NCBI RefSeq assembly: GCF_036507355.1
Contig: NZ_AP027877.1
Origin: Escherichia coli
GTDB taxonomy: Bacteria > Pseudomonadota > Gammaproteobacteria > Enterobacterales > Enterobacteriaceae
Reading direction: 5' to 3' (one strand)
Length of the DNA stretch: 64,000 nucleotides
Part shown: positions 1 through 3,000 of the stretch, one piece after another
Layout: the number at the start of each line of letters is the position of its first letter
How positions within the stretch are numbered: the first letter of the stretch is position 1
Made by a program: the position numbers

Positions 1-3000
1 GTTCCAGTGTGGCTGGTCATCCTCTCAGACCAGCTAGGGATCGTCGCCTAGGTGAGCCGTTACCCCACCTACTAGCTAATCCCATCTGGGCACATCCGAT
101 GGCAAGAGGCCCGAAGGTCCCCCTCTTTGGTCTTGCGACGTTATGCGGTATTAGCTACCGTTTCCAGTAGTTATCCCCCTCCATCAGGCAGTTTCCCAGA
201 CATTACTCACCCGTCCGCCACTCGTCAGCAAAGAAGCAAGCTTCTTCCTGTTACCGTTCGACTTGCATGTGTTAGGCCTGCCGCCAGCGTTCAATCTGAG
301 CCATGATCAAACTCTTCAATTTAAAAGTTTGATGCTCAAAGAATTAAACTTCGTAATGAATTACGTGTTCACTCTTGAGACTTGGTATTCATTTTTCGTC
401 TTGCGACGTTAAGAATCCGTATCTTCGAGTGCCCACACAGATTGTCTGATAAATTGTTAAAGAGCAGTGCCGCTTCGCTTTTTCTCAGCGGCGCGGGGTG
501 TGCATAATACGCTTTCCCGCTACAGAGTCAAGCATTTATTTTTGCTTTCTCTGCCGGAATTCTCAGGAGAACCCCGCTGACCCGGCGGCGTGTTTGCCGT
601 TGTTCCGTGTCAGTGGTGGCGCATTATAGGGAGTTATTCCGGCCTGACAAGAGGAAATTTAAAATAATTTTCTGACCGCGCATTTTTTCAGCAAAAGCCC
701 CGTTAATGTGCCATAAAACAAGCAATTTGCCGTTTTTGCAACCGTAATCACACTTCCTGGTGGCATACTAAGGAGGAATAAAAAGAAAAAGGAAGATTAG
801 TAATGCCTTTAAGCGCACAACAGTTAGCTGCACAGAAAAACCTTTCGTATGTTCTGGCTGAGAAGCTGGCGCAACGGATCTTAAAAGGTGAATATGAACC
901 CGGCACCATTTTGCCCGGTGAGATTGAGCTGGGCGAGCAATTTGGAGTGAGTCGTACAGCGGTACGCGAAGCGGTCAAAACGTTAACGGCGAAAGGGATG
1001 GTTTTACCGCGACCGCGAATTGGTACCCGGGTAATGCCACAATCGAACTGGAATTTTCTTGATCAGGAATTGCTTACCTGGTGGATGACAGAAGAGAACT
1101 TTCATCAGGTCATCGATCACTTTCTGGTTATGCGTATCTGTCTGGAGCCGCAAGCCTGCCTACTGGCAGCAACGGTTGGCACCGCGGAACAGAAGGCGCA
1201 TCTCAATACGTTAATGGCCGAAATGGCGGCATTAAAAGAGAACTTTCGCCGTGAACGCTGGATCGAAGTCGATATGGCCTGGCATGAGCATATCTATGAA
1301 ATGAGCGCCAATCCGTTTTTGACCTCATTCGCCTCCCTATTCCATTCGGTTTATCACACTTACTTCACGTCAATTACCAGCGACACAGTGATAAAACTGG
1401 ATCTGCATCAGGCGATTGTCGATGCGATTATCCAAAGCGATGGCGACGCGGCATTTAAAGCTTGTCAGGCGCTGCTACGCTCACCTGATAAGTGATAACC
1501 CGATAACAGGACATTGAATGAGCGATAAAAAGAAGCGCAGTATGGCGGGTTTGCCGTGGATCGCGGCGATGGCCTTCTTCATGCAGGCACTTGATGCCAC
1601 TATTCTGAATACCGCCTTACCCGCAATCGCTCATAGCCTTAATCGTTCTCCTCTCGCGATGCAATCAGCCATCATCAGTTATACGCTGACGGTGGCGATG
1701 CTTATTCCGGTAAGCGGATGGCTAGCCGATCGCTTCGGTACGCGTCGCATTTTTACCCTTGCCGTGAGTCTATTCACGTTGGGTTCTCTGGCCTGCGCAC
1801 TTTCCAACTCGCTACCACAGCTGGTTGTCTTCCGGGTTATTCAGGGGATAGGCGGCGCAATGATGATGCCTGTTGCTCGGCTGGCCTTACTGCGCGCTTA
1901 TCCTCGTAATGAACTTCTTCCAGTATTGAATTTTGTCGCCATGCCGGGTCTGGTGGGGCCAATTTTAGGCCCCGTTCTTGGCGGCGTGCTGGTCACCTGG
2001 GCAACCTGGCACTGGATATTTTTAATCAATATCCCCATAGGTATTGCAGGCCTTCTTTACGCGCGCAAACATATGCCCAATTTCACCACCGCACGACGCA
2101 GATTCGATATCACTGGCTTTTTGTTGTTTGGCCTCAGCCTTGTTCTCTTCTCAAGCGGAATAGAGCTATTCGGGGAAAAGATTATCGCCAGCTGGATTGC
2201 CTTGACGGTAATTGTCACCAGCATCGGGTTACTGCTTCTCTATATTCTCCATGCACGACGCACGACAAACCCATTGATTTCATTAGATTTATTTAAAACC
2301 CGCACTTTCTCGATCGGTATCGTAGGCAATATTGCAACCCGTCTGGGGACCGGCTGTGTACCGTTCCTTATGCCATTGATGTTACAGGTAGGATTTGGTT
2401 ATCAGGCGTTTATTGCCGGCTGTATGATGGCACCGACAGCGTTAGGTTCCATTATTGCAAAATCGATGGTTACCCAAGTCTTACGTCGTCTGGGCTATCG
2501 CCATACATTAGTGGGGATCACGGTGATTATTGGGCTAATGATCGCTCAGTTCTCTTTGCAATCACCGGCAATGGCGATATGGATGCTGATCTTGCCGTTG
2601 TTTATATTAGGGATGGCTATGTCGACGCAGTTTACCGCGATGAATACCATCACACTTGATCTGACCGATGACAACGCCAGCAGCGGTAACAGTGTTCTGG
2701 CGGTCACGCAGCAACTGTCTATCAGTTTAGGCGTTGCTGTAAGTGCGGCCGTCCTTCGCGTTTATGAAGGGATGGAAGGCACAACGACTGTCGAACAATT
2801 CCACTATACGTTTATCACGATGGGCATTATTACTGTTGCTTCAGCAGCAATGTTCATGCTTCTGAAAACAACCGATGGTAATAATTTGATCAAAAGAAAG
2901 CGTAAATCTAAGCCGAACCACGTTCCATCAGAATCGGAGTAAGTTGTAATCGTTGTTGCTGAAGAGTTGGCTGGGTTATCCGATGGATGAGTACATCAAT

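What the first reader, a model, noticed from the sequence alone, without database searches (positions are those of the whole stretch)
1..760. Window opens inside an rRNA operon; tandem P1/P2 promoters are intact
Only the first 322 nt of the 16S gene are in the window (minus strand). Upstream, both promoters match the canonical rrn P1 (with UP element) and P2. The yieP start at 803 is only about 150 bp from the P1 core, so the Fis/UP region and the yieP promoter must share this short divergent interval.
Basis: partly seen in the sequence, partly recalled or inferred. Interest (0 to 1): 0.2.

Follow-up and report, generated by a model that had tools for sequence, protein, structure and literature searches.

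The report
E. coli rrnC promoters beside yieP
The window starts inside the well-known E. coli ribosomal RNA operon rrnC, whose two textbook promoters are intact and sit back-to-back with the promoter of the regulator gene yieP; this is an ordinary, already described locus.

Summary
Window 1-322 (minus strand) is the first 322 nt of a bacterial 16S rRNA gene, cut off by the window edge. The 480-bp interval 323-802 differs at 3 bases from E. coli K-12 rrnC-yieP.

- **P1:** -35 TTGTCA at 650-645, -10 TATAAT at 628-623, rrnB-type UP element at 673-652, GC-rich discriminator, +1 inferred at 614.
- **P2:** -35 TTGACT at 531-526, -10 TATTAT at 509-504.
- **Leader:** boxB, boxA and boxC are present.

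The yieP ATG is at 803, which is 153 bp from the P1 -35 and 189 bp from P1 +1. The published yieP start site, 27 nt before the ATG, falls at 776. That is 7 nt after an extended -10, TGgCATACT (761-769). The yieP core promoter therefore lies at -147 to -162 of rrnC P1, directly upstream of the Fis-site region.

The locus is present in 5421 of 5426 complete E. coli genomes. The 16S-yieP arrangement holds in eight other enterobacterial lineages, with the yieP -10 at -152 or -153 from P1 +1 in all of them.

Everything essential is already known, so interest is low. Whether yieP and rrnC P1 are functionally coupled is untested.

The parts
1..322 (-). 5' 322 nt of the 16S rRNA gene (rrsC), cut by the window edge
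   Evidence: Rfam RF00177 at 241 bits, model positions 1-319, truncated at the 3' side. Identical to the 16S of the intact operon in NZ_OZ197100.
323..614 (-). 292-nt rrn leader, from the inferred P1 +1 (A at 614) to the mature 16S 5' end
   Evidence: Identical to the K-12 rrnC leader except at 559 and 476. Predicted fold -97.5 kcal/mol, z = -5.3 against shuffles. The +1 is placed by homology with rrnB P1, 9 nt after the -10; this is established knowledge and was not measured here.
623..650 (-). rrnC P1 core promoter: -35 TTGTCA (650-645), 16-bp spacer, -10 TATAAT (628-623), followed by the discriminator GCGCCACC (622-615)
   Evidence: Promoter scan, 11/12. Identical in K-12 rrnA, rrnB, rrnC and rrnG. 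The -35 hexamer and the block AACTCCCTATAATGCGCC are invariant in six genera.
652..673 (-). UP element of P1 (-38 to -59): AGAAAATTATTTTAAATTTCCT
   Evidence: Base-for-base the sequence found in K-12 rrnB, rrnA and rrnC P1.
678..692 (-). Fis site I position (centre -71): GCTGAAAAAATGCGC
   Evidence: The heuristic Fis score is 11.5; background is 0.22 such hits per 100 bp. The same heuristic ranks the known rrnB sites at -71, -102 and -143 as its top three. A G...C 15-mer is present at -71 in nine lineages, and TGAAAAAA is invariant in the six aligned genera. Binding was not tested.
697..743 (-). Further Fis-like 15-mers centred at -90 (697-711), -102 (709-723) and -122 (729-743)
   Evidence: Heuristic scores 11.0, 10.5 and 10.0. 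These are close to the background of 0.5-2 hits per 100 bp, so the evidence is weak. The -102 site recurs in Salmonella and Citrobacter, and the -122 site reaches the threshold in Citrobacter. PMC4696680 reports gel-shift evidence for several Fis sites on the rrnC promoter fragment.
504..531 (-). rrnC P2 core promoter: -35 TTGACT (531-526), 16-bp spacer, -10 TATTAT (509-504); +1 inferred near C497
   Evidence: Promoter scan, 10/12. Identical to K-12 rrnC. TTGACT is invariant in six genera.
432..492 (-). Antitermination region of the leader: boxB hairpin (492-469), boxA TGCTCTTTAACAA (466-454), boxC TGTGTGGG (439-432)
   Evidence: Read from the sequence. The hairpin appears in the predicted fold. 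Window 470-427 is a 44-nt block invariant in six genera, and boxA is 100% invariant. The box names and their Nus-factor role come from established knowledge.
761..776 (+). yieP promoter: extended -10 TGgCATACT (761-769) and the transcription start at about 776
   Evidence: The start site, 27 nt upstream of the ATG, was found by 5' RACE (PMC11340327). The -10 ends 7 nt before it. TGGCATA is invariant in six genera and lies at -152 or -153 from rrn P1 +1 in nine lineages. No -35 match occurs at 16-18 bp; TTGCAA at 736-741 is 22 bp away.
803..1495 (+). yieP coding sequence (FadR/GntR-family regulator, 230 aa)
   Evidence: ORF list. Protein identical to K-12 YieP. RefSeq annotation of the matching genomes. 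Pfam GntR and FCD domains in homologues.

Best explanation
Window 1-802 is the promoter-proximal end of the E. coli rRNA operon rrnC, read on the minus strand, together with the divergent yieP promoter.

**How rrnC transcription works (established knowledge of rrn operons, not tested here):**
- Transcription starts at two tandem sigma-70 promoters.
- P1 (+1 about 614) is the strong, growth-rate-regulated promoter. Its near-consensus hexamers are boosted by an A/T-rich UP element (652-673) that contacts the RNA polymerase alpha C-terminal domains, and by Fis dimers bound upstream (site I centred at -71).
- P1's GC-rich discriminator and its start 9 nt after the -10 make the open complex short-lived. 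This makes P1 sensitive to the initiating NTP and to ppGpp/DksA.
- P2 (+1 about 497) lies about 117 bp downstream and supplies basal expression.
- The leader carries boxB, boxA and boxC, which load the Nus-factor antitermination complex. Its distal part pairs with sequence 3' of the 16S gene to form the RNase III processing stem. That 3' partner lies outside the window.

**The yieP side:**
- yieP-hsrA is transcribed in the opposite direction from an extended -10 promoter (761-769) that lacks a good -35. Its start, at about 776, is 162 bp from the P1 start.
- The yieP core promoter therefore abuts the rrnC upstream activating region.

**What is shown and what is inferred:**
- Shown: sequence identity, coordinates and conservation.
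- Taken from the literature: the yieP start site and YieP positive autoregulation.
- Inferred: the Fis sites other than site I, and any cross-talk between the two promoters.
For: - **16S gene.** Match at 1-322 on the minus strand.
- **Identity to K-12.** 477 of 480 intergenic bases match K-12 rrnC-yieP, and the interval has the same length.
- **Other K-12 operons.** P1 from -66, the UP element, P2 and the leader are identical to K-12 rrnA and rrnB.
- **Promoter hexamers.** Both promoters were found by the scan.
- **Synteny.** Same gene order, with complete rrnC operons, in K-12 and in the closest genome.
- **Population.** Window 652-830 is present in 5421 of 5426 complete E. coli genomes and is at least 99% identical in 4627 of them.
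- **Other genera.** Salmonella, Citrobacter, Enterobacter, Kosakonia and one further Enterobacteriaceae genome all have a complete 16S gene divergent from yieP.
- **Invariant blocks.** They fall exactly on the -35 and -10 of P1 and P2, on Fis site I, on boxA-boxC and on the yieP extended -10.
- **Fis heuristic.** It recovers the three known rrnB sites and places a site at -71 here.
- **yieP start site and autoregulation.** PMC11340327.
- **Fis binding.** Several Fis sites on the rrnC promoter fragment by gel shift, PMC4696680.
Against: - Nothing contradicts this reading.
- The window ends inside the 16S gene, so the completeness of the operon in the source genome is inferred from relatives.
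- P1 and P2 start sites are placed by homology, not measured.
- The Fis-like sites at -90, -102 and -122 score near the background rate of the heuristic.
- The primary paper mapping Fis sites on all seven rrn P1 promoters (Hirvonen et al. 2001) could not be read.
- No YieP operator could be located in the interval.
Confidence: 0.97

Rival explanations
1. The yieP promoter and rrnC P1 are functionally coupled, not merely adjacent. Possible routes are shared Fis dimers acting on both promoters, negative supercoiling generated behind the very active rrnC P1 stimulating the weak yieP promoter, or YieP bound at its own upstream region modulating rrnC P1.
For: - The yieP extended -10 keeps its distance to rrn P1 +1 within 1 bp (-152 or -153) in nine enterobacterial lineages. 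Meanwhile the P1-to-boxA distance varies from +125 to +151 and the P1-to-16S distance from +269 to +298.
- The intervening sequence is poorly conserved: 6-17% of columns are invariant in 760-745 and 728-693.
- yieP lacks a -35 element at a workable spacing, which is typical of activator-dependent promoters.
- A Fis-like 15-mer is centred 40 bp upstream of the yieP start.
- YieP activates its own transcription, and ChIP signal has been reported upstream of yieP (PMC11340327).
Against: - No experiment on this was found in the literature searches.
- The fixed spacing rests on nine fairly close relatives (YieP 79-89% identical) and could reflect few indels over a short span.
- The -122 Fis-like site scores at background level.
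- No YieP-site match above background was found.
Confidence: 0.2
2. The 16S fragment is a truncated or pseudo rRNA gene rather than the start of a full operon.
For: Only 322 nt are visible, so the window alone cannot exclude it.
Against: - The 322 nt are identical to the intact rrsC of NZ_OZ197100.
- 5385 of 5426 complete E. coli genomes carry at least 80% of window 1-1600, with 16S annotated under the match in the listed rows.
- The operon is complete in both genomes inspected.
- The five differences from K-12 in helix 6 all preserve pairing, as expected of a functional gene.
Confidence: 0.01
3. The operon body downstream of the shared promoter and leader is not rrnC-type but a hybrid, created by recombination or inversion between rrn operons.
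For: - Two of the three differences from K-12 rrnC match other K-12 operons: 476 G as in rrnA, rrnB and rrnG, and 559 T as in rrnG. This suggests gene conversion among rrn copies.
- A few genomes lack the rrnC-yieP junction, for example H40.
Against: - The closest genome has the rrnC-type content: a tRNA-Glu spacer and distal tRNA-Asp and tRNA-Trp.
- Such hybrids are rare.
Confidence: 0.03
4. Window 444-695 (minus strand) encodes a small RNA of the Rfam family Ysr197.
For: cmscan match at E = 4e-19 over the full model length.
Against: - The score of 83.3 bits is far below the family's gathering score of 167, and there is no match at gathering thresholds.
- The matched stretch runs from the Fis I/UP region through P1, P2, boxB and boxA, so the similarity is simply rrn promoter and leader homology.
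Confidence: 0.01

Closest known systems
E. coli K-12 rrnC P1/P2 promoter region and leader (rrsC upstream region, NC_000913.3 3941328-3941807)
   Same: Same length (480 bp) with 477 of 480 bases identical. Same flanking genes, and YieP is identical.
   Different: Three substitutions: window 798 (5 nt before the yieP ATG), 559 (between P1 and P2) and 476 (boxB loop). None touches a promoter hexamer, the UP element, Fis site I or boxA.
E. coli rrnB P1, the reference rrn promoter (UP element, Fis sites at -71, -102 and -143, GC discriminator)
   Same: Identical from about -66 through the core promoter, P2 and the leader. A Fis-type 15-mer lies at the same -71 position.
   Different: Upstream of about -66 the sequence is rrnC-specific. 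No strong Fis-like 15-mer occurs at -143; instead the yieP -10 occupies -147 to -155. In K-12, rrnB has the same-direction gene murI upstream, whereas rrnC has a divergent gene.
Other K-12 rrn operons with a divergent neighbour: rrnD-yrdA (473 bp) and rrnE-purH (614 bp)
   Same: A protein-coding gene is transcribed away from the rrn P1 upstream region across a short interval.
   Different: Different genes and different upstream sequences. The neighbour's start site was not examined here.
yieP promoter as described by Bianco et al. 2024 (PMC11340327)
   Same: Same gene and 27-nt 5' UTR. The same conserved 16S, yieP-hsrA, rbs gene order is reported there.
   Different: The passages retrieved do not describe where the promoter lies relative to rrnC P1 or the Fis sites. 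The extended -10 assignment and the 162-bp spacing between the two starts are my reading of the sequence.

Membership tests
Bacterial SSU rRNA (Rfam RF00177) | Covariance-model score above the gathering threshold | tested here: met
   241.2 bits against a threshold of 50, model positions 1-319, truncated by the window edge.
E. coli rrnC operon (locus identity) | 16S gene divergent from yieP-hsrA, followed by rbsR and rbsK | tested here: met
   ORFs. Matches to annotated genomes and to K-12.
E. coli rrnC operon (locus identity) | Complete operon: 16S, tRNA-Glu, 23S, 5S, tRNA-Asp, tRNA-Trp | not testable with these tools
   The window ends at 16S nucleotide 322. The operon is complete in NZ_OZ197100 and in K-12.
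rrn P1-type promoter | -35 TTGTCA, 16-bp spacer, -10 TATAAT | tested here: met
   Window 650-623, minus strand.
rrn P1-type promoter | GC-rich discriminator (GCGCCNCC) between the -10 and the start | tested here: met
   GCGCCACC at 622-615, identical to rrnA, rrnB and rrnG.
rrn P1-type promoter | A/T-rich UP element at -40 to -60 | tested here: met
   AGAAAATTATTTTAAATTTCCT at 673-652, identical to rrnB P1.
rrn P1-type promoter | Fis binding sites upstream, with site I centred at -71 | tested here: inconclusive
   A sequence-level Fis-like 15-mer at -71 scores above background and is positionally conserved in nine lineages. The other candidate sites score near background. Protein binding was not tested. 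Gel-shift data for the rrnC fragment are in PMC4696680.
rrn P1-type promoter | Growth-rate, ppGpp/DksA and initiating-NTP control | not testable with these tools
   Requires in vivo or in vitro transcription assays.
rrn P2 promoter | Second sigma-70 promoter about 120 bp downstream of P1 | tested here: met
   TTGACT-16-TATTAT at 531-504. The inferred start near 497 is 117 bp from the P1 +1.
rrn leader antitermination site | boxB hairpin, boxA TGCTCTTTAACAA and boxC, in that order | tested here: met
   Window 492-469, 466-454 and 439-432. boxA is invariant in six genera.
Rfam Ysr197 sRNA (RF02849) | Score at or above the gathering threshold | tested here: not met
   83.3 bits against a threshold of 167. 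Absent at gathering thresholds.
Extended -10 sigma-70 promoter (yieP) | TGn motif immediately upstream of a -10 hexamer, placed about 7 nt before the mapped start | tested here: met
   TG at 761-762 and CATACT at 764-769, with the published start at about 776. TGGCATA is invariant in six genera. Promoter function of these bases was not tested.

The most novel reading that the evidence does not exclude
The divergent yieP promoter may be architecturally locked to rrnC P1. Its extended -10 sits at -152 or -153 from P1 +1 in nine enterobacterial lineages, although the sequence between them has diverged and the lengths downstream of P1 vary by up to 29 bp. This would fit a single Fis/RNA polymerase nucleoprotein complex, or transcription-generated supercoiling. 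Either could tie expression of the YieP regulon (rydC/cfa, sdaC, yohJK) to growth-rate control of rRNA synthesis, or could let YieP bound upstream of its own gene modulate one specific rrn operon.
Probability: 0.2. Interest if true: 0.35.

Novelty: already known. Interest (0 to 1): 0.08.

Why it matters
As it stands, the result serves mainly as orientation.

The rrn P1/P2 system is among the best-studied promoter systems in bacteria, and this copy is a standard one.

The only point with any open content is the shared 162-bp divergent control region. If yieP transcription depends on the rrnC Fis array or on rrnC P1 activity, the YieP regulon (membrane-stress and metabolic targets) would be wired to ribosome synthesis. 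That would be a modest addition to E. coli regulatory knowledge, and it is easy to test.

Tried and rejected
- **Hirvonen et al. 2001.** This paper maps Fis and UP elements on all seven rrn P1 promoters. It could not be retrieved by PubMed id or PMC id. The rrnC Fis positions therefore come from my heuristic and from the gel-shift statement in PMC4696680.
- **YieP operator search.** I looked in 640-810 for matches to the two tested sdaC YieP sites from the IPOD-HR preprint. The best match was 10 of 15, a level reached in 96 of 300 random 170-bp windows. This is inconclusive.
- **Repeats in 323-830.** The repeat finder reported only one inverted repeat, in the leader just upstream of the 16S 5' end (325-351). 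A separate exact-match scan of 650-802 found only two short A/T palindromes within the UP element. No operator-like palindrome lies upstream of yieP.
- **Terminator scan of 1-1600.** None found.
- **Ysr197 sRNA reading.** Rejected, because the score is below threshold and the match coincides with the rrn promoter and leader.
- **Literature on rrnC-yieP coupling.** Searches found nothing on functional coupling.
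Full report
**Observation.** The first 322 bases of the window, read on the minus strand, are the 5' end of a bacterial 16S rRNA gene. Rfam SSU_rRNA_bacteria scores 241 bits against a gathering score of 50, covering model positions 1-319, and the match is cut at the RNA's 3' side by the window edge. The next ORFs on the plus strand are yieP (803-1495) and hsrA (1518-2942). They are followed on the minus strand by rbsR and rbsK. The promoter scan of 1-1600 reports exactly two sigma-70-like sites, both on the minus strand. They are TTGTCA-16-TATAAT at 650-623 and TTGACT-16-TATTAT at 531-504. The count alone is not above the shuffled expectation of 1.7. What makes these sites real is their identity to characterised promoters, described below. 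No terminator-like site was found.

**Which locus it is.** Window 1-1600 matches 5385 of 5426 complete E. coli genomes over at least 80% of its length, with a best identity of 99.9% in NZ_OZ197100. The features annotated under the match are 16S rRNA, yieP and 'mdtD', which is the RefSeq name for hsrA. In that genome and in K-12 MG1655 the operon is complete: 16S, tRNA-Glu, 23S, 5S, tRNA-Asp, tRNA-Trp, then hdfR. This is rrnC. The 16S-yieP interval is 480 bp in both the window and K-12 and differs at three positions:
- 798, five bases before the yieP ATG;
- 559, between P1 and P2;
- 476, in the boxB loop.

Two of these variants, 476 G and 559 T, are the bases found in other K-12 rrn operons. 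This is consistent with gene conversion among rrn copies. YieP is identical to the K-12 protein.

**Anatomy, in rrn reading direction (minus strand).**
- **Fis site I position:** GCTGAAAAAATGCGC at 692-678, centred at -71.
- **UP element:** AGAAAATTATTTTAAATTTCCT at 673-652.
- **P1:** -35 TTGTCA at 650-645, -10 TATAAT at 628-623, discriminator GCGCCACC, and +1 at A614. The +1 is placed by homology with rrnB P1, where the start lies 9 nt after the -10. This is established knowledge, not measured here.
- **P2:** -35 TTGACT at 531-526, -10 TATTAT at 509-504, start inferred near C497, 117 bp from the P1 start.
- **Leader elements:** boxB hairpin at 492-469, boxA TGCTCTTTAACAA at 466-454, boxC TGTGTGGG at 439-432.
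- **Mature 16S 5' end:** position 322.

The 292-nt leader folds far better than shuffled controls (z = -5.3), and the fold includes the boxB hairpin. Aligned with all seven K-12 operons, the window is identical to rrnA, rrnB and rrnC from about -66 of P1 through the leader, apart from a few single-base differences between operons. Upstream of that point it is rrnC-specific.

**The yieP side.** Bianco et al. mapped the yieP transcription start by 5' RACE to 27 nt upstream of the ATG. They also showed that YieP activates its own transcription, and they noted ChIP signal upstream of yieP (PMC11340327). In the window this start is position 776, give or take one base. Seven bases upstream ends CATACT (764-769), which is preceded by TGg (761-763). 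This is an extended -10 promoter. No -35 match lies at a workable spacing; TTGCAA at 736-741 is 22 bp away. The two divergent starts are 162 bp apart. The yieP extended -10 and start occupy -147 to -162 relative to rrnC P1.

**Fis sites.** I scored 15-mers against the degenerate Fis consensus (G/T)NNYRNNWNNYRNN(C/A), taken from my own knowledge.
- As a positive control, the top three scores upstream of rrnB P1 are its known sites at -71, -102 and -143.
- In the window the hits are at -71 (score 11.5), -90 (11.0), -102 (10.5) and -122 (10.0).
- Background in the rest of the window is 0.22, 0.54, 1.13 and 2.11 hits per 100 bp at those thresholds.
- Only the -71 site, and marginally the -90 site, stand above chance.

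Maeda et al. report gel-shift evidence that the rrnC promoter fragment binds the previously reported number of Fis dimers, within a range of three to five across operons (PMC4696680). The primary mapping paper (Hirvonen et al. 2001) could not be read.

**Conservation.**
- **Within E. coli:** the rrnC-specific stretch 652-830 is present in 5421 of 5426 complete genomes and is at least 99% identical in 4627.
- **Other genera:** YieP homologues (79-89% identical) were traced to their contigs in Salmonella, Citrobacter, Enterobacter, Kosakonia, Leclercia, Phytobacter, an Intestinirhabdus-like metagenome bin and one further Enterobacteriaceae genome.
- **Arrangement:** in the five tested with Rfam, a complete 16S gene lies divergent from yieP. 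In the other three, the rrn P1, boxA and 16S 5' sequences were found at corresponding positions.
- **Invariant blocks in the six-genus alignment:** these are TATGCCA (the reverse complement of the yieP TGGCATA), TGAAAAAA within Fis site I, TTGTCA, AACTCCCTATAATGCGCC, TTGACT, GGAAAGCGTA, and a 44-nt block covering boxA through boxC.
- **Spacing:** TATGCCA starts at -153 or -152 from P1 +1 in all nine lineages, and a G...C 15-mer stays at -71. By contrast, boxA ranges from +125 to +151 and the 16S 5' end from +269 to +298.

The 16S, yieP-hsrA, rbs gene order has already been published (PMC11340327, Fig. 4A text).

**Mechanism.** For the rrn side, everything follows the established model.
- UP-element contacts with alpha-CTD and Fis activation drive very high initiation at P1.
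- The GC discriminator and unstable open complex confer control by NTP and ppGpp/DksA.
- P2 gives basal expression.
- boxBAC assembles the Nus antitermination complex.
- The leader takes part in RNase III processing.

None of these activities can be tested with sequence tools. What is shown is that every sequence determinant is present and unaltered. For the yieP side, a weak promoter with an extended -10 and positive autoregulation is documented. Whether Fis or rrnC P1 activity affects it is not known.

**Comparison with known systems, and novelty.** This is the K-12 rrnC control region with three neutral-looking substitutions, so it is already known. The sub-threshold Rfam 'Ysr197' match (83 bits against 167) covers the Fis I/UP region, P1, P2, boxB and boxA. 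It is therefore rrn promoter and leader homology, not an sRNA gene. The only element not found in the literature searched is the near-invariant spacing between the yieP promoter and rrn P1. This hints at, but does not demonstrate, functional coupling. I put that at about 0.2.

**Verdict.** The feature is real but ordinary. Interest is 0.08.

Noticed in passing
window 16335-16383 (-): Exact match to the three AT-rich 13-mer repeats of E. coli oriC (49 of 49 bases, none expected by chance). The window therefore contains the chromosomal replication origin about 16 kb from rrnC. This agrees with the rrnC-oriC distance quoted in PMC5110994.
   Followed up: partly
window 26686-26843 (-): Full-length Rfam match to the enterobacterial sRNA STnc410 (188 bits against a gathering score of 50). 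It is the only other Rfam hit at gathering threshold in the 64-kb window.
   Followed up: no
window 444-695 (-): The Rfam family Ysr197 ('Yersinia sRNA 197') aligns end to end with the rrn Fis I/UP region, P1, P2, boxB and boxA (83 bits, below its gathering score of 167). The family model appears to describe an rrn promoter and leader segment rather than an independent sRNA.
   Followed up: partly
window 230-244 and 97 (-); 16S positions 79, 80, 89, 90, 93 and 226: Six differences from K-12 rrsC. Five lie in helix 6 (V1). They are two compensatory double changes plus one G-C to G-U change, so pairing is preserved. The sequence is identical to that of NZ_OZ197100.
   Followed up: partly
window 476 and 559: Two of the three spacer differences from K-12 rrnC carry the base found in other K-12 rrn operons: 476 G as in rrnA, rrnB and rrnG, and 559 T as in rrnG. 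This suggests gene conversion between rrn copies.
   Followed up: partly
window 1518-2942 (+) and 2908-3900 (-): HsrA is one residue shorter than in K-12 (one alanine missing at alignment position 381) and has four substitutions. RefSeq (PGAP) names this gene 'mdtD', although it is hsrA (yieO) in K-12. The 3' ends of hsrA and rbsR overlap convergently by 35 nt, as in K-12.
   Followed up: partly
L009-L016, about 150-190 bp upstream of rrn P1 +1: The yieP extended -10 (TGGCATA) lies at -152 or -153 from rrn P1 +1 in nine enterobacterial lineages, although lengths downstream of P1 vary by up to 29 bp. Gene callers in several genera start yieP 4-9 codons upstream of the ATG that is conserved with E. 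coli, which probably over-extends the gene.
   Followed up: partly
NZ_CM128562.1 (hit H40) and four other E. coli genomes: Five of the 5426 complete genomes lack a match covering at least 80% of the rrnC-specific junction 652-830, and one of these has no match at all. In H40 only the 37-nt UP-element part matches, so the rrnC-yieP junction may be rearranged or deleted there.
   Followed up: no
L005 and L007 (K-12 rrnE and rrnD upstream regions): Two other K-12 rrn operons also have a divergently transcribed protein gene close to P1: yrdA, 473 bp from rrsD, and purH, 614 bp from rrsE. The rrnC-yieP layout is therefore not unique among rrn operons.
   Followed up: no
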